From an uncultured Clostridia bacterium (lineage in GTDB: Bacteria; Bacillota; Clostridia; TANB77; CAG-465): a stretch of 64,000 nucleotides of DNA. Position 1 is the first letter of the stretch, and each line of letters opens with the position of its first letter. The DNA is taken from assembly GCA_947627255.1 (NCBI GenBank), contig CANQVI010000002.1, positions 64,047 to 128,046 of the forward strand, in the 5' to 3' direction. Of the stretch, positions 54,281 through 61,708 are shown piece after piece. Under the pieces are notes generated by a model. It saw only the letters and a list, made by a program, of their open reading frames with translations, ran no database searches and had not been told where the DNA came from. A program made the position numbers and the translations under genes.

Positions 54281-54523
54281 AAAGAGGCAGTTTTTGCCTC
54301 TTTATTTGTAGCGTATTTATATAATGTACTTATATGCTTTTTACATATTATCTTTATATTTAAATATATTTAGTATTTCAGCCGCATCTGCTGTATCTAT
54401 TACTCCATTACCATCCATATCTCCTACAGCAATATCTTCTTCTGTCGCATTGCGATATTTAAATAAGTTTAAAGCTACTGCAGCATCTGCTGTATCTACA
54501 TTACCATTTCCATCTAAATCTCC
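54281..54523 (-). repeat. Dockerin plus 3' UTR plus terminator cassette, copy A
   Basis: Terminator aaagaggcagtttttgcctcttt, the conserved atttgtagcgtatttata, then the dockerin coding end. Aligns by eye with 57646-57883 and 60357-60585. Confidence 0.8.
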
Positions 54524-55153
54524 CATTATTTTTTCTTGTTCTGAATCAAGATTGAAACTGATTGATACAGTATCATTTACACTTCTATATGATAAGCTAT
54601 TATTTGCATATTCGCTTATAAAGAAATCTCCTTTATATGTTGCATATCTTTCTACTTCGTTTCCATAGTTATCTGTAAAGTTTACTAAAACTCTGTAACT
54701 TTCATTGCTACTTACGTCTAAGTCATATATTGTTAGATAATATACGTCACCATCTTCATATGTATCAACCTCAGTAGTAGCAACTATGTCACCATTGCCG
54801 TTTACTAGATTTACTACTGGTTTTTCTTTTAATACTTCAACTTTTCCATTGTAATTGTGATTTATTCTTATTGAGCCTATTAAAGATAATTCTGCATCAT
54901 CTTCAAACTCATCTCCAGCATAGCCACCAAATTCTTCATCTAAATCTAAACACATTAGACCATTAGTATGTGGCAAAATTGTATTAAATTGTAAATCTAG
55001 AAGCTCAACTGTATATTCGTCATCTTGTGTAATAGAATTCGATTGTTGTTTTCCTCCTGGAGCGAATGTTAAAGCGAAAACACAACTACATACTACATTA
55101 AGTACCATAGCAAATGTTACTATTGCAATCAATCTTTTACTAGTCTTTTTCAT
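54341..55153 (-). CDS. Secreted protein of unknown cargo with C-terminal dockerin
   Basis: Signal peptide, acidic beta-rich cargo, then GDLDGNGNVDTADAAVALNLFKY...GDMDGNGVIDTADAAEILNIFKY. Confidence 0.8.
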   Translation of the reverse strand: MKKTSKRLIAIVTFAMVLNVVCSCVFALTFAPGGKQQSNSITQDDEYTVELLDLQFNTILPHTNGLMCLDLDEEFGGYAGDEFEDDAELSLIGSIRINHNYNGKVEVLKEKPVVNLVNGNGDIVATTEVDTYEDGDVYYLTIYDLDVSSNESYRVLVNFTDNYGNEVERYATYKGDFFISEYANNSLSYRSVNDTVSISFNLDSEQEKIMGDLDGNGNVDTADAAVALNLFKYRNATEEDIAVGDMDGNGVIDTADAAEILNIFKYKDNM

Positions 55154-55178
55154 ATAATCATCACTCCTTTATATGATT

Positions 55179-55207
55179 ATATTATCATTAAAAAAAACAA
55201 TTTTCAA
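55179..55207 (-). promoter_or_regulatory. Promoter of the 54341-55153 gene
   Basis: Minus strand reads TTGAAA, 17-nt spacer (contains T8) ending TGA, then TAATAT. Confidence 0.55.
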
Positions 55208-55326
55208 TAGTATTTTAATAAATTTTTAGCTATTTTTAGCTATTTTTTTTAATAAAGAGGCAAAAAGTACATAAAAAAAGAAATAGCAAATTATATTTTT
55301 ACTATTTCCTCTTTATAACTTATATA

Positions 55327-56880
55327 TTATTTACTTCCATATTTAAATACATTTAGTATTTCAGCTGCGTCAGCTGTATCTATTATTCCATTACCGTCCA
55401 TATCTCCTACAGCAATATCTTGTGCTGTTGCATTGTTATATTTAAATAAGTTTAAAGCTACTGCAGCATCTGCTGTATCTACTTGACCATTTCCGTCTAA
55501 ATCACCTTTTTTAAACTTTAATACTTCTATTTCGCAAGTTGCAGATTTTCCATCAGAAGTAATAGTTATAATAGCTGTACCTTCACCTACAGCTGTAACA
55601 ACACCACTATCATTTACTGTAGCTACTCTATCATTATTACTTTTATATGTTATTTTACCTTTTACTGGATTTAAAACTGTAACTCTGACTGTTCTATTTA
55701 CAGTAGTTGTAATTTTGCTATCTTCAAGTGTTAATACAGCATCATTAAATTTAACTGTAACTTTACAAGTAGCTGTTTTATTTCCAACTCTTGCTGTTAT
55801 GGTAGCCATACCAACGCCTTTACCTGTTACAACACCATTTGAATCAACTGTTGCAACATTTGGGCTATCAGATTCCCATGTAACAGTTTTATCTGAAGTT
55901 GTATTAGCAGGTTTATATGTTACAGATAATTTTACTGTATCTTTTACATATACTTCTGCACTATTTGGTAATGATATACTAACTAATTTTAAAGGATCAT
56001 CTACTTTTATTTTCCAAGATAAAGATGTATTTCCTAAAGTTGCAGTTAATTCTGCTTCTCCATCACCTACTGCTGTAACAACACCTTCAGTATCTACAGT
56101 AAATACTTTAGTATTTGAAGATTTCCATGTAACATTTGAAGGTAATATTGTAGTTGTTTCCATTCCTTGTGCATAAGTTCCTACATTTATTAAACTTACT
56201 TTAGTAGGTTTTTTAGTTTCACCTACTTTTAGTTCGTTAACATCATCAAATCCTGTTACTTTAAGATCTATAACACTTACCCAATGAACAACACCTTGAC
56301 TATCTTTATAATGTGCTCTAAAGTCTGGGTCTATTTCAACATCTTGAGTAACTTCTTTTTCTCCAGAATATCCAGGATCATTTGTTGAATCATTAACAGA
56401 AAATTCTTGTATCCAGAATATTTGACCATTTTGCCAATATACACCAACACCGATTGTTTTATATGAGCCATTTACAATTTGCGCCTTATGTCCAGGAGAA
56501 GCCATCCATTCTGCTACAATGCTTTGAGGAGTCATTCTACCATGTGATCTTGCTAAGTTTTCAGCACCAATACGGATGTTTCCAGATTCAGTTTGTACAC
56601 CATCTACCCATCCCATAGGTCTATCATGTGAACAATAAACAGATAGTTCAGCTGCTCTTATCATTGCAGCATCCATTAATCCTTTGTCTACTTTTAAAGG
56701 TTTTAATCCTAATTTTTGTCTTTCAATATTTGTAAATTTTACTACTTCGTATGCATAGTCGTAATCATATAGTCCTGTTATAGTAACTTTTGTTTTTTCT
56801 ACTGCGTTTGCAATAGGTGTTATAGTTAAAACTAATATCATTATAACACTAAATACTTTCATCATTTTTTTCATGTACAT
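55327..56880 (-). CDS. Secreted CAP/SCP-domain protein with three Big_2 domains and C-terminal dockerin
   Basis: Start set at ATG 56880, 7 nt after AGGAGG. CAP motifs NIERQKLGLKPL and SPGHKAQIVNGSYKTIGVGV. Three Big_2 units, then the dockerin GDLDGNGQVDTADAAVALNLFKY...GDMDGNGIIDTADAAEILNVFKY. Confidence 0.85.
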   Translation of the reverse strand: MYMKKMMKVFSVIMILVLTITPIANAVEKTKVTITGLYDYDYAYEVVKFTNIERQKLGLKPLKVDKGLMDAAMIRAAELSVYCSHDRPMGWVDGVQTESGNIRIGAENLARSHGRMTPQSIVAEWMASPGHKAQIVNGSYKTIGVGVYWQNGQIFWIQEFSVNDSTNDPGYSGEKEVTQDVEIDPDFRAHYKDSQGVVHWVSVIDLKVTGFDDVNELKVGETKKPTKVSLINVGTYAQGMETTTILPSNVTWKSSNTKVFTVDTEGVVTAVGDGEAELTATLGNTSLSWKIKVDDPLKLVSISLPNSAEVYVKDTVKLSVTYKPANTTSDKTVTWESDSPNVATVDSNGVVTGKGVGMATITARVGNKTATCKVTVKFNDAVLTLEDSKITTTVNRTVRVTVLNPVKGKITYKSNNDRVATVNDSGVVTAVGEGTAIITITSDGKSATCEIEVLKFKKGDLDGNGQVDTADAAVALNLFKYNNATAQDIAVGDMDGNGIIDTADAAEILNVFKYGSK

Positions 56881-56907
56881 ACACATTCCTCCTAAAATGA
56901 CAACTAT

Positions 56908-60235: not shown

Positions 60236-60266
60236 ATATCTTTCTCCTTTACAACCATATAATATT

Positions 60267-60295
60267 TATATATCACTAAAAAAATAAATTTTCAA
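60267..60295 (-). promoter_or_regulatory. Promoter of the transglutaminase-like/dockerin gene
   Basis: Minus strand reads TTGAAA, 17-nt spacer (contains T7) ending TGA, then TATATA. Confidence 0.55.
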
Positions 60296-60356
60296 TATAA
60301 TTTTATAATAATAGCTTAATAAAAAGTAACAAAAAATTAAAATAAAACACTAAAAT

Positions 60357-60585
60357 AAAGAGGCAAATTGTCTCTTTATTTATAGCGTATTTATATGCTT
60401 TTTTATACATTACCTTTATATTTAAATACATTTAGTATCTCAGCTGCATCTGCTGTATCTATTATTCCATTTTCATCCATATCTCCTATAGCTATGTCTT
60501 CATCTGTAAAATTCTTGTATTTGAATAGGTTTAGAGCTACTGCAGCATCTGCTGTATCTACTTGTCCATTTCTATCTAAATCTCC
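60357..60585 (-). repeat. Dockerin plus 3' UTR plus terminator cassette, copy C
   Basis: aaagaggcaaattgtctcttt, atttatagcgtatttata, then the dockerin coding end. Confidence 0.85.
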
Positions 60586-61647
60586 TTTTAGATAATCTGA
60601 TACAGTAAAGTTAATTGTATATTCTCTTTCAAGACTTGAAGAATATTCTGCATCAGGTACATATCTAGATGGATTAAATACTACTTTTACTTTTGCAGTT
60701 GCTTTTCCATTATTTAATGTTACTGTTACATCATTTGCTTTTGTATCTAACTCATAATCTTCATATTTGTTTTGATCTAATACATAGTCCATAAATAATT
60801 TTGATTCAGTTGTTATTTGAGCATTTTTTGGTGTTGTTGGACTTAATGCAACATTATATGTATATTTATCTTTATCAAAATTTGCAATTTTTACAGCTTC
60901 TTGTCCATTTACTTTATAACTCATATTATTAATTCTTAAATCTCTATATATAATTGAGTATAAATAGTATTTTATGCTATGCTTTTCTTCTAGGTTTGCT
61001 GATTCAACACTGTATTCGCCTAATTGTGTAGACATACTTTTTACATACCATGGAACAGCACATGGTATTACTAGACCTTTAGCAGCATCAGTTTTGTCAT
61101 ATTCTTCCATTTCTTTTACTATTTTTTCTTGTTTTGCTATTTCTTGTTTTAGCATATCTATTAATCTTTGACTTCCAGCTTTACTTTCGCTTGATGAGTC
61201 ACCTGAACTTGCTATACCTTCAAGTTGTGTTATAAACTTATTCTGAGCTTTAATAAAATAATCTGCTGTATATTTTTCTAATAAGTTTCTGTCTAAATTT
61301 GGATTTAACATTCCTGTCTTTGTGTATAATTCTTTAAACTCAGATTCTACATCTTTTGTTATAAATATTCCATTTACTGTTAATATATTATTGTTAAATG
61401 TTACATTAGTTGTATTTTGTGCTAACTTATTTAAAGTTGTTTTATAGTTCTTTTCTAAATCCATTGAATATCCATCTGGAAATGAAATGCTTGATGGAAT
61501 TGTCAACTTTTCATTATCTACAATTATTCTATACTTATTATGAAATTCAAATGTAGTTGAAGTTTTTACATCTGCATATACTGTATTTATTGTTAATACT
61601 AAAGAAAACAATATAAGCGATAACGCTATTCTAACCTTTTTTTTCAT
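60403..61647 (-). CDS. Secreted protein with helical N-terminal region, cadherin-like beta-sandwich-like segment and C-terminal dockerin
   Basis: Signal peptide. MSYKVNGQEAVKIANFDKDKYTYNVALSPTT resembles the cadherin-like beta-sandwich pattern. The dockerin is identical in protein sequence to that of the 57701-60235 gene. Confidence 0.8.
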   Translation of the reverse strand: MKKKVRIALSLILFSLVLTINTVYADVKTSTTFEFHNKYRIIVDNEKLTIPSSISFPDGYSMDLEKNYKTTLNKLAQNTTNVTFNNNILTVNGIFITKDVESEFKELYTKTGMLNPNLDRNLLEKYTADYFIKAQNKFITQLEGIASSGDSSSESKAGSQRLIDMLKQEIAKQEKIVKEMEEYDKTDAAKGLVIPCAVPWYVKSMSTQLGEYSVESANLEEKHSIKYYLYSIIYRDLRINNMSYKVNGQEAVKIANFDKDKYTYNVALSPTTPKNAQITTESKLFMDYVLDQNKYEDYELDTKANDVTVTLNNGKATAKVKVVFNPSRYVPDAEYSSSLEREYTINFTVSDYLKGDLDRNGQVDTADAAVALNLFKYKNFTDEDIAIGDMDENGIIDTADAAEILNVFKYKGNV

Positions 61648-61679
61648 ATTATATATTCCCCCTATATCTCTCTTTTTTT

Positions 61680-61708
61680 ATTATCTCATAAACAAAAATT
61701 TATTTCAA
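61680..61708 (-). promoter_or_regulatory. Promoter of the 60403-61647 gene
   Basis: Minus strand reads TTGAAA, 17-nt spacer ending TGA, then GATAAT. Confidence 0.55.

What the first reader, a model, noticed from the sequence alone, without database searches (positions are those of the whole stretch)
54281..61708. Array of five monocistronic dockerin-tagged secreted proteins whose cargo is not carbohydrate-active
Five consecutive minus-strand genes each encode a signal peptide, a different N-terminal cargo, and essentially the same C-terminal duplicated Ca-binding dockerin.

The cargoes are: an unknown acidic beta-rich domain; CAP/SCP plus 3 Big_2; a cohesin-like module; a transglutaminase-like core plus BspA LRR plus MBG-like repeats; and a helical region plus cadherin-like segment. 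The dockerin reads GDLDxNGxVDTADAAVALN(L/I)FKY ... GDMDxNG(I/V)IDTADAAEILN(V/I)FKY.

I recognise no glycoside hydrolase or CBM in any cargo. The cargoes look like adhesion, host-interaction or protease modules. The helix residues after the Ca loop (TADAAVALN / TADAAEILN) are almost invariant across all seven dockerins in the window, which argues that they all dock to the same cohesin partner.

Each gene has its own promoter, four of them of the form TTGAAA-N14-TGA-hexamer, and its own terminator. This looks like a modular surface-display repertoire rather than a cellulosome operon.
Basis: partly seen in the sequence, partly recalled or inferred. Interest (0 to 1): 0.75.

Follow-up and report, generated by a model that had tools for sequence, protein, structure and literature searches.

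The report
Dockerin-tagged adhesin gene array
Five neighbouring genes of an uncultured gut Clostridia bacterium encode secreted adhesin-like proteins that all end in the same calcium-binding 'dockerin' plug; rumen Ruminococcus has the same arrangement, so the find is solid but largely ordinary, and the open question is which socket the plugs fit.

Summary
Five consecutive minus-strand genes (54341-61647) each encode a signal peptide, a different cargo and a canonical duplicated Ca-loop dockerin. Two more such genes lie at 8623-12817. Cargo calls confirmed: CAP + 3 Big_2, and BspA-type LRR. Weakly supported: transglutaminase-like core, MBG, cadherin-like. No GH/CBM/CE/PL was found in the 7 window proteins or in 10 dockerin proteins of relatives.

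The array is chromosomal and syntenic in at least 6 uncultured gut Clostridia species. Dockerins are homogenised within each genome and differ between genomes (concerted evolution). This fits one shared receptor, but gene conversion alone could produce it.

The 'cohesin-like' call for the 198-aa protein is unproven. Its 110-aa beta-sandwich models confidently, and its best PDB matches are C. perfringens cohesins. However, TM is only 0.5-0.6, nanobodies score almost as well, and no cohesin HMM hits it. The module is a tiny lineage-restricted family. In relatives it also heads a membrane-anchored 534-aa protein, which makes it a candidate cryptic receptor.

Close precedent: R. flavefaciens FD-1 ORF01263-01267, five head-to-tail signal-peptide / transglutaminase-like or LRR / dockerin genes whose group 4 dockerins bind cell-surface cohesins. 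Verdict: new member of a known kind, moderate interest.

The parts
61680..61708 (-). Promoter-like site TTGAAA-N14-TGA-GATAAT upstream of the 414-aa gene
60403..61647 (-). 414-aa secreted protein: signal peptide (VYA|D), unknown N-terminal region, beta-rich region weakly like the Cadherin-like sandwich, C-terminal dockerin. It is the first gene of the array in every related genome.
60353..60381 (-). Imperfect terminator hairpin (AAATAAAGAGAC..GCCTCTTTATTT) after the 414-aa gene; one copy of the 81-nt 3' cassette
60267..60295 (-). Promoter-like site TTGAAA-N14-TGA-TATATA upstream of the 844-aa gene
57701..60235 (-). 844-aa secreted protein (possibly a lipoprotein): Ig-like N-terminus, weak transglutaminase-like Cys/His/Asp core, BspA-type LRR_5 (139.7 bits), three MBG-like repeats, dockerin
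57640..57672 (-). Intrinsic terminator (15-bp stem) after the 844-aa gene
57604..57632 (-). Promoter-like site TTGAAA-N14-TGA-TATATA upstream of the 198-aa gene
56988..57584 (-). 198-aa protein: signal peptide, 110-aa beta-sandwich module, 5-residue linker, dockerin; candidate monovalent adaptor
57174..57503 (-). Beta-sandwich module (residues 28-137 of the 198-aa protein). Lineage-restricted family; best PDB fold matches are C. perfringens cohesins at TM 0.49-0.62; no cohesin HMM hit.
56908..56936 (-). Promoter-like site TTGCAA-N17-TATAAT upstream of the 519-aa gene; there is no terminator between the 198 and 519 genes
55327..56886 (-). 519-aa secreted protein: CAP/SCP domain, three Big_2 domains, dockerin
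55179..55207 (-). Promoter-like site TTGAAA-N14-TGA-TAATAT upstream of the 270-aa gene
54341..55153 (-). 270-aa secreted protein: acidic beta-rich N-terminal domain of unknown family (also found at the N-terminus of 443-528-aa dockerin proteins in relatives), dockerin (Pfam 23.5 bits)
54278..54306 (-). Intrinsic terminator (12-bp stem) after the 270-aa gene; end of the array
54338..54528 (-). Dockerin-coding 191-nt repeat, copy 1 of 5. The other copies are at 55321-55511, 56976-57166, 57698-57888 and 60400-60590; DNA identity is 80-94%.
8623..11937 (+). Sixth dockerin protein, 1104 aa: signal peptide, LRR_5 x4, Flg_new, Big_2 x4-6, dockerin
11942..12817 (+). Seventh dockerin protein, 291 aa: signal peptide, LRR_5, dockerin; it starts 4 nt after the 1104-aa gene
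61769..63685 (-). Upstream block of small genes of unknown function (207 aa, 34 aa, 160 aa, split 69+150 aa). It is syntenic with the array in at least 5 species; a functional link is only inferred.
51856..52434 (-). 192-aa protein of unknown function that follows the array in 5 related genomes

Best explanation
This is a conserved chromosomal locus of an uncultured, low-GC (about 26%) gut Clostridia bacterium. It encodes a set of Sec-exported, non-enzymatic or protease-like surface proteins: a BspA-type LRR adhesin with a transglutaminase-like core, a CAP/SCP + Big_2 protein, and three proteins with lineage-specific cargo. Each carries the same C-terminal type-I-like dockerin.

Shown:
- the signal peptides;
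- two canonical Ca2+ loops per dockerin;
- homology to solved dockerins;
- absence of CAZy domains in the proteins examined;
- conservation of the array across species;
- homogenisation of the dockerins within each genome.

Inferred: after export the dockerins fold with Ca2+ and plug into one common receptor on the cell envelope. The locus would then work as an exchangeable surface-display repertoire for adhesion or host interaction, as the group 4 dockerin proteins of R. flavefaciens do on the surface cohesin ScaE. The near-symmetry of the two dockerin repeats suggests a dual binding mode.

Most speculative step: the receptor is the 110-aa beta-sandwich module of the 198-aa protein. In related genomes this module also forms the outermost domain of a 534-aa type I membrane protein (module, linker, 2 Cadherin-like domains, TM helix, cytoplasmic tail). 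On this reading the membrane protein is the anchor and the 198-aa protein is a monovalent adaptor.

Sub-probabilities:
- dockerin-tagged non-CAZy secreted proteins: about 0.9;
- display via some cohesin-type receptor: about 0.6;
- the module is that receptor: about 0.35.
For: Anatomy of the seven proteins.

Dockerin homology:
- the family profile hits solved dockerins (8x39, 2y3n, 8ajy, 5nrm, 1ohz) at E 1e-12 to 1e-4;
- orthologues pass the Pfam cut-off.

Context:
- housekeeping neighbours (LepA, RecD2, RNase Y, PolA, AroA);
- the identical array is present in several independent metagenome contigs;
- syntenic arrays are found in 6 species-level MAGs from mouse, water deer and other guts.

Cargo in relatives: CAP, LRR_5, Big_2, Transglut_core (51.8 bits) and unknown domains; no GH or CBM.

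Concerted evolution. Within-genome dockerin identity is 0.66-0.89, against 0.42-0.76 between genomes. For the window the within-genome minimum is 0.75, while the best match to any foreign dockerin is 0.64, even for orthologous genes whose cargo is 31-41% identical.

Module:
- AF2 pLDDT 94, pTM 0.84;
- the top PDB fold hits are cohesins 2jh2, 2vo8 and 2w1n;
- it is the top-ranked frame for a CipA-cohesin HMM among 1435 frames, although at E 0.4;
- it is always fused to a dockerin or encoded beside a dockerin-protein gene;
- a membrane-anchored, dockerin-less paralogue exists.

Precedent: PMC2930009, PMC5429695. Sequence-invisible cohesin families are reported in PMC13463774.
Against: - No protein with a recognisable cohesin is present in the window, although only about 45 of its ORFs were scanned with Pfam.
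- The rest of the genome could not be searched.
- The module fails every sequence test for cohesin. It falls below the TM 0.65 criterion. It is about 30 residues shorter than a cohesin. It never occurs in tandem (one stretch per protein in all 13 strong hits).
- The membrane-anchored paralogue was found only in relatives, not in the window or its conspecific contigs.
- Homogenised dockerins can arise from gene conversion of the 191-nt cassette without any selection by a receptor.
- There is no expression, localisation or binding evidence.
Confidence: 0.6

Rival explanations
1. Accessory arm of an ordinary cellulosome or amylosome. The genome carries, outside the 64-kb window, classical multi-cohesin scaffoldins and dockerin-tagged glycoside hydrolases. 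These adhesin-like proteins merely share that scaffold, as LRR, transglutaminase and unknown modules do among the 220+ dockerin proteins of R. flavefaciens.
For: In R. flavefaciens FD-1, LRR (28), transglutaminase-like (10) and unknown (155) modules coexist with GH/CBM cargo in one cellulosome system (PMC2930009). Only 64 kb of this genome was available. A GH94 gene lies near the related array in L008.
Against: All 17 dockerin proteins examined in 7 genomes lack CAZy domains. The genomes are low-GC uncultured gut Clostridia that were not retrieved under any cellulolytic name. No Pfam cohesin was seen in roughly 170 kb of related loci that had Pfam annotations.
Confidence: 0.15
2. Orphan dockerins without a cohesin. 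The duplicated Ca-binding module acts as a Ca2+-dependent folding or stability module, or binds a non-protein ligand such as cell-wall polymer or host glycan. The beta-sandwich of the 198-aa protein is simply one more cargo (a small adhesin) that the lineage also displays directly on a membrane stalk.
For: The module fails cohesin HMMs and hhalign. Its fold scores are barely above those of nanobodies, CARDB and MG domains. It is always single-copy. Its strong conservation (46-58% identity, with many invariant aromatic and acidic residues) would also suit a ligand-binding adhesin. That dockerin-like modules occur widely without detectable cohesins is my own knowledge of the literature; I did not verify it here.
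Against: Every solved dockerin that the family profile hits is a cohesin binder or comes from a cohesin-dockerin system. Genome-specific homogenisation of all dockerins, including that of the 198-aa protein, is what co-evolution with one protein partner predicts. Recent work shows that cohesins often escape sequence detection (PMC13463774).
Confidence: 0.2
3. Soluble secreted complex rather than surface display. The 198-aa module + dockerin protein cross-links the other dockerin proteins into free extracellular assemblies, by analogy with the non-cellulosomal cohesin-dockerin toxin complexes of Clostridium perfringens.
For: The best structural matches of the module are precisely the C. perfringens non-cellulosomal cohesins 2jh2, 2vo8 and 2w1n. 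No anchor (SLH domain, sortase signal or TM-anchored module) is present in the window.
Against: Relatives encode a TM-anchored paralogue of the module. The cargo here is adhesin-like rather than the GH toxins of C. perfringens. The structural match itself is weak.
Confidence: 0.05

Closest known systems
Ruminococcus flavefaciens FD-1 ORF01263-ORF01267 (group 4b dockerin gene cluster; Rincon et al. 2010, PMC2930009) and group 4 dockerin binding to cell-surface cohesins such as ScaE (PMC5429695)
   Same: Five head-to-tail genes, each encoding signal peptide, variable cargo (transglutaminase-like, LRR) and a near-identical C-terminal dockerin. The C-terminal part is conserved and the N-terminal part variable. 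The proposed role is in structuring the cell surface rather than in fibre degradation.
   Different: The taxon is different: low-GC uncultured Clostridia rather than Ruminococcus. The Ca loops here have the canonical 12 residues, not the 15-residue first loop of group 4b. The cargo set adds CAP + Big_2 and lineage-specific domains. No ScaE-like sortase-anchored cohesin has been identified. No CAZy dockerin proteins have been seen so far in the lineage.
Monovalent adaptor scaffoldin ScaC of R. flavefaciens (one cohesin + one dockerin; Rincon 2004, cited in PMC5429695)
   Same: The 198-aa protein has the same plan: signal peptide, a single beta-sandwich, a C-terminal dockerin.
   Different: The ScaC cohesin is a bona fide nine-strand cohesin recognisable by sequence and structure (5LXV), and its dockerin has a different specificity group from the dockerins it recruits. 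Here the sandwich is about 110 aa and fails cohesin HMMs. Its dockerin has the same helix residues as the cargo dockerins, which would allow self-chaining.
Non-cellulosomal cohesin-dockerin pairs of Clostridium perfringens glycosidase toxins (PDB 2jh2, 2vo8, 2w1n)
   Same: Cohesin-type modules used outside plant-fibre degradation in a low-GC clostridium. They are the top fold matches of the module (E 1e-4 to 2e-5).
   Different: TM is only 0.49-0.62 and sequence identity 13-16%. The perfringens modules sit inside large GH84/GH33 enzymes, whereas here the cargo is non-CAZy.
Classical cellulosome (C. thermocellum CipA type)
   Same: Dockerin architecture (two F-hand Ca loops and helices, internal symmetry) and a C-terminal position on secreted proteins.
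   Different: No GH/CE/PL/CBM cargo, no multi-cohesin scaffoldin, no CBM3 and no SLH anchor were seen. hhalign of the module against CipA cohesins gives probability 1%.
Sequence-invisible cohesin families found by AlphaFold in human ruminococci (Minor et al. 2026, PMC13463774)
   Same: The idea that the receptor may be a cohesin that HMMs cannot detect.
   Different: Those families reach TM >= 0.65 to reference cohesins, keep nine strands and occur in multi-cohesin scaffoldins. The module here reaches none of the three.

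Membership tests
Dockerin (type I-like, Pfam PF00404) | Two tandem ~22-residue segments, each a 12-residue Ca-binding loop (D/N at positions 1, 3, 5, 9, 12) followed by a helix | tested here: met
   All seven proteins carry two DxDxNxxxDxxD loops 33 residues apart, each followed by TADAAxxLNxFKY.
Dockerin (type I-like, Pfam PF00404) | Significant match to the family model or to solved dockerins | tested here: met
   Of the window proteins, 1 of 7 passes the Pfam gathering score (23.5 against 22.9). Five score 16.7-20.5 bits, and the 1104-aa protein gets no hit at E<=0.01. The family profile hits solved dockerins at E 1e-12 to 1e-4. Orthologues score 24-43 bits.
Dockerin (type I-like, Pfam PF00404) | Ca2+-dependent binding to a cohesin | not testable with these tools
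   This needs ITC, ELISA or native PAGE with and without EDTA, or multimer structure prediction, which was not available.
Cohesin (Pfam PF00963; CDD types I-III) | Match to a cohesin sequence model | tested here: not met
   There is no PF00963 hit at E<=0.1 for the window protein and none at E<=10 for 8 family members. The PDB profile search finds no cohesin. hhalign against CipA cohesins gives probability 1%, E 0.053. A CipA HMM ranks the module first among 1435 frames, but only at E 0.4.
Cohesin (Pfam PF00963; CDD types I-III) | Nine-strand jelly-roll beta-sandwich of ~140 aa with TM >= 0.65 to a reference cohesin (criterion of PMC13463774) | tested here: inconclusive
   The model is confident (pLDDT 94). 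The top PDB hits are cohesins 2jh2, 2vo8 and 2w1n, but TMq is 0.58-0.62 and TMt 0.49-0.52. Nanobodies, CARDB and MG domains reach TMq 0.51-0.57. The module is about 110 aa with about 8 strands. Its topology could not be inspected because no coordinates were returned.
Cohesin (Pfam PF00963; CDD types I-III) | Occurs on scaffoldins, typically in tandem, and/or on cell-anchored proteins | tested here: inconclusive
   The module is never in tandem: all 13 strong hits among 1.84 billion representatives have a single stretch. It does, however, occur on a TM-anchored, dockerin-less protein in relatives and as a cohesin + dockerin-style adaptor.
Cellulosome (system) | Dockerins borne by GH/CE/PL enzymes and CBMs | tested here: not met
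   No CAZy Pfam family was found in the 7 window dockerin proteins or in 10 from related genomes. dbCAN was not available.
Cellulosome (system) | Primary scaffoldin with multiple cohesins and a CBM3, plus an SLH- or sortase-anchored scaffoldin | not testable with these tools
   None was found in the 64-kb window or the fetched loci, but the whole genome could not be scanned.
R. flavefaciens group 4-type surface dockerin protein cluster | Head-to-tail genes of the form SIGN-variable cargo (transglutaminase-like, LRR or unknown)-Doc, with near-identical dockerins | tested here: met
   compared with the description in PMC2930009.
R. flavefaciens group 4-type surface dockerin protein cluster | Group 4b sequence signature (first Ca-binding repeat extended from 12 to 15 residues) and binding to the ScaE cohesin | tested here: not met
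   Both loops have 12 residues. No ScaE-like protein was identified. The resemblance is therefore in organisation and probable role, not in membership of that dockerin group.

The most novel reading that the evidence does not exclude
The 110-aa beta-sandwich is a new, minimal cohesin family that sequence models cannot detect, and it is the cognate receptor of the genome-homogenised dockerins. The lineage would then have a self-contained, non-cellulosomal display system made of three parts:
1. a type I membrane protein that carries the module on a Cadherin-like stalk (the anchor);
2. a 198-aa module + dockerin protein whose two ends have matching specificity, so that it can chain head-to-tail into filaments or extend the anchor;
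3. a repertoire of adhesin, CAP and transglutaminase-like cargo.

The conserved block of small unknown genes upstream might regulate or assemble the system.
Probability: 0.3. Interest if true: 0.65.

Novelty: new member of a known kind. Interest (0 to 1): 0.4.

Why it matters
Dockerin-cohesin pairing is usually read as a marker of plant-fibre degradation. This locus adds a clean case in small, low-GC, uncultured gut Clostridia from mouse, deer and other hosts: every dockerin protein seen carries adhesin-like or protease-like cargo and none carries a carbohydrate-active domain. That supports the view, first raised for R. flavefaciens group 4 dockerins, that the plug-and-socket system is a general way to decorate the cell surface.

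It also offers a compact, testable system for finding a receptor that sequence methods miss: seven near-identical dockerins, one small adaptor candidate, and one membrane-anchored candidate in relatives. If the module is that receptor, it would be a very small dockerin-binding domain of possible use in protein engineering.

Tried and rejected
1. Prophage or mobile-island origin. Rejected. The flanks are housekeeping genes, the array is syntenic across species, PHROGs gives nothing, and the nearby integrase is a Xer-type recombinase conserved in position.

2. Transitive link from the module to cohesins through distant hits. The weak hits of the exhaustive HMM search (P0042-P0048) are HYR, Big_12 and filamin Ig repeats, not cohesins.

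3. Searching the 5.8-billion-protein collection with the dockerin alignment, to list the cargo repertoire of this dockerin subtype. Nothing passed at E<=1e-5 with a 65-column profile. I used the dockerin proteins in the fetched loci instead.

4. AF2 of the 414-aa family with orthologues from the fetched loci.

5. Finding the membrane-anchored paralogue in the window's own species. The candidates P0019, P0021, P0023 and P0037 all come from other studies or species.

6. Function of the conserved flanking genes (207, 160, 69/150, 192 and 534 aa). No hit in Pfam, NCBIfam or PHROGs.

7. Generic sigma-70 promoter scan. Its count is not above chance in this AT-rich DNA (80 against 88 +/- 11). Only the specific TTGAAA-N14-TGA pattern is enriched.

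8. Naming the organism. The cluster look-up gave no names, and relatives are labelled only 'uncultured Clostridia/Clostridiaceae bacterium'.

Full report
**What is there.** The window is low-GC DNA (24-35% G+C in 2-kb windows, mostly about 25-29%).

Between 54341 and 61647 lie five consecutive minus-strand ORFs of 414, 844, 198, 519 and 270 aa. Each begins with a typical Sec signal peptide: 3-4 Lys/Arg, a 12-residue hydrophobic core with mean Kyte-Doolittle 2.5-3.1, and a small-x-small site such as VYA, INA, ANA or VFA.

Each ends in two 12-residue loops DxDxNxxxDxxD, 33 residues apart, and each loop is followed by the helix TADAA(V/E)(A/I)LN(L/I/V)FKY. A six-frame motif scan finds exactly seven such C-termini in the window. 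The other two are on the adjacent plus-strand genes 8623-11937 (1104 aa) and 11942-12817 (291 aa). The observation and its coordinates are correct.

**Are they dockerins?** Pfam Dockerin_1 scores the five array proteins at 16.7-23.5 bits against a gathering score of 22.9, so only the 270-aa protein formally passes. The 291-aa protein scores 20.5 bits, and the 1104-aa protein gets no Dockerin_1 hit at E<=0.01.

This weakness reflects divergence, not absence. A profile of the 198-aa protein family hits solved dockerins (8x39, 2y3n, 8ajy, 5nrm, 4uyp, 3ul4, 1ohz) at E 1e-12 to 1e-4, always over its C-terminal 55 residues. Orthologues of the same protein score 24-43 bits on PF00404. Dockerin membership is met on anatomy and homology. 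Binding cannot be tested here.

**Cargo.**
- The 519-aa protein is CAP/SCP (50.7 bits) plus three Big_2 (83.4 bits).
- The 844-aa protein has BspA-type LRR_5 (139.7 bits). It also has a weak Transglut_core hit (14.6 bits, E 0.042) in a region where a GDC...NNH...TID Cys/His/Asp pattern is visible by eye, and a weak MBG_3 hit (E 0.1).
- The 1104-aa and 291-aa proteins carry LRR_5, Flg_new and Big_2.
- The 414-aa and 270-aa cargo have no Pfam, NCBIfam or PHROGs family.
hhalign of the orthologue alignment against bona fide Cadherin-like domains gives E 0.023 and probability 2%, although the hallmark positions are in register.
- No GH, CBM, CE or PL family appears in any of the seven proteins.

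**Transcription signals.** All five genes have a Shine-Dalgarno sequence and an upstream promoter-like site. Four have the form TTGAAA-N14-TGA-hexamer, an extended -10. A slightly stricter version of this pattern occurs 4 times in 64 kb against 0.07 expected, and three of those matches are here. The generic sigma-70 scan is not above chance in this AT-rich DNA.

Terminator-like hairpins are enriched in the region (11 against 2.0 expected). They follow the 844 and 270 genes cleanly, the 414 gene imperfectly and the 519 gene weakly, and are absent after the 198 gene. 'Monocistronic' is therefore reasonable for most genes but unproven, and the 198-519 pair may be co-transcribed.

Much of this regularity comes from duplicated cassettes:
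- a 191-nt dockerin-coding repeat, five copies at 80-94% DNA identity;
- an 81-nt 3'UTR/terminator cassette, three copies;
- a 49-nt promoter/RBS cassette, three copies.

**Context and relatives.** The surrounding genes are housekeeping (LepA, RecD2, RNase Y, AroA, PolA, HemN-like, YebC), so the locus is chromosomal. The identical array recurs on several independently assembled metagenome contigs.

A scan of one genome per species found relatives only in uncultured Clostridia/Clostridiaceae MAGs from mouse, water-deer cecum and other guts. In six of these genomes the array is syntenic. It begins with the 414-aa orthologue (31-37% identity), contains the 198-aa orthologue (41-54%) and the CAP-Big_2 orthologue (36-41%), and every member ends in a dockerin. 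The ten extra dockerin proteins examined in these loci carry CAP, LRR_5, Big_2, Transglut_core (51.8 bits) or unknown domains, and again no CAZy domain.

A block of small cytoplasmic-looking genes upstream (207, 34, 160 and 69+150 aa) and a 192-aa gene downstream travel with the array in at least five species. Their function is unknown.

**Concerted evolution.** Dockerins group by genome, not by gene. The window's seven share TADAAVALN / TADAAEILN. L009 has ANDAAIALD, L012 has SDDAAIALD, L014 has SNDAAMALD, L008 has GTDAAMILD and L010 has SADAAKALT.

Mean within-genome identity is 0.66-0.89, against 0.42-0.76 between genomes. In the window the least similar pair (0.75) is still closer than the best match to any foreign dockerin (0.64). 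One shared, co-evolving receptor predicts this pattern. Gene conversion of the 191-nt cassette also produces it.

**The 'cohesin-like' module.** Residues 28-137 of the 198-aa protein are more conserved across species than its dockerin, with invariant D47, F48, A53, A54, Y55, D56, W80, D82, S116, A117 and N118, and near-invariant W81.

Fold evidence:
- AF2 models the module confidently (pLDDT 87 for the full-length protein, 94 for the domain alone, pTM 0.84).
- In both Foldseek searches of the PDB the top hits are the non-cellulosomal cohesins of C. perfringens (2jh2, 2vo8, 2w1n). However, E is only 1e-4 to 2e-5, with TMq 0.58-0.62 and TMt 0.49-0.52.
- Nanobodies, CARDB and complement MG domains follow at TMq 0.51-0.57.
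- The field's recent structural criterion is TM >= 0.65 with nine strands (PMC13463774). The module has about 110 residues and about 8 strands.

Sequence evidence:
- There is no PF00963 hit even at E<=10 in eight family members.
- hhalign against verified CipA cohesins gives probability 1%, aligning only the first 39 columns.
- A CipA HMM ranks the module first among 1435 frames, but at E 0.4.

Distribution:
- An exhaustive HMM search of 1.84 billion representative proteins finds only 13 clusters at E<1e-10, each with a single copy of the module. The weaker hits are unrelated Ig repeats.
- Most members are ~200-aa module + dockerin proteins.
- A second architecture exists in relatives (L015, L016, P0037, P0041): signal peptide, module, linker, two Cadherin-like domains (54-59 bits), a TM helix and a cytoplasmic tail. 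It is encoded close to a 751-aa Big_2 protein with a different dockerin.

My reading is that cohesin membership is not met by sequence and is inconclusive by fold. The distribution (always fused to, or encoded beside, dockerins, plus one membrane-anchored dockerin-less form) makes the module the best available receptor candidate, at about 0.35.

**Comparison with what is known.** Rincon et al. (PMC2930009) described five head-to-tail genes in R. flavefaciens FD-1, ORF01263-01267. Four are SIGN-transglutaminase-like-Doc and one is SIGN-LRR-Doc. Their dockerins are similar, their C-terminal parts conserved and their N-terminal parts variable. Genome-wide the authors counted 28 LRR, 10 transglutaminase-like and 155 unknown modules on dockerin proteins, and they suggested a role in structuring the cell surface.

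Later work showed that group 4 (and group 2) dockerins bind cell-surface cohesins rather than cellulosomal ones, and that ScaC is a one-cohesin, one-dockerin adaptor (PMC5429695). Rumen metagenomics likewise found dockerins on non-carbohydrate functions (PMC6487960).

The present locus works like these systems. It is not a member of dockerin group 4b, because its loops have 12 rather than 15 residues. It also lies in a different, uncultured lineage in which no CAZy dockerin protein has yet been seen.

**Verdict.** The novelty is a new member of a known kind, with one testable lead, a possible cryptic mini-cohesin that has an adaptor form and a membrane-anchored form. Interest 0.4.

Noticed in passing
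window 61769-62372 (-): Two overlapping ORFs (69 aa and 150 aa, in different frames) together correspond to a single 205-222-aa protein in related genomes. The same split is present in independently assembled conspecific contigs (L004-L007), so it is a real frameshift or split gene rather than a sequencing error.
   Followed up: partly
window 62384-63685 and 51856-52434 (-): Genes of unknown function (207, 34, 160 and 192 aa) flank the dockerin array and stay syntenic with it in at least five species at 30-50% identity. They have no hit in Pfam, NCBIfam or PHROGs. They may be regulators or assembly factors of the array.
   Followed up: partly
window 8623-12817 (+): A second dockerin locus lies directly after lepA. 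It has a 1104-aa LRR_5/Flg_new/Big_2 protein and a 291-aa LRR_5 protein, 4 nt apart, with the same dockerin type as the main array.
   Followed up: partly
window 60176-60235 (-), N-terminus of the 844-aa protein: The signal peptide contains a lipobox-like IVAC (Cys20) as well as a VFA|A signal-peptidase I site. This one cargo protein might be a lipoprotein and so doubly attached.
   Followed up: no
window 4358-5728 (+): A 456-aa protein has an N-terminal membrane segment, a ~250-residue Asp/Glu/Lys/Thr/Pro-rich low-complexity linker and a small C-terminal beta domain. It has no Pfam family and looks like a surface stalk protein.
   Followed up: no
L015 7214-11584, L016 7227-11596, L017 1002-7608, L020 1729-4520: In relatives the membrane-anchored paralogue of the beta-sandwich module is encoded close to a ~751-aa Big_2 protein. 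That protein's dockerin is of a different, more classical type (GDVDGSGVINARDLLMLQRYILGK), and its N-terminal region looks by eye like a cell-wall glucosaminidase (not confirmed by Pfam).
   Followed up: partly
window 54257-54337, 57620-57700, 60331-60411; 55161-55209, 57586-57634, 60249-60297: The 3'UTR/terminator (81 nt) and the promoter/RBS (49 nt) are themselves repeated cassettes (62-77% identity). This suggests the array grew by duplication or recombination of dockerin-terminator-promoter units.
   Followed up: yes
window 1-64000: No tRNA gene and no Rfam family at gathering threshold (no riboswitch, T-box or leader) were found anywhere in the 64 kb.
   Followed up: no
P0034 (400 aa, from the representative search): A third architecture of the module family has an N-terminal membrane region of about 230 residues, followed by the module and a dockerin.
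   Followed up: no
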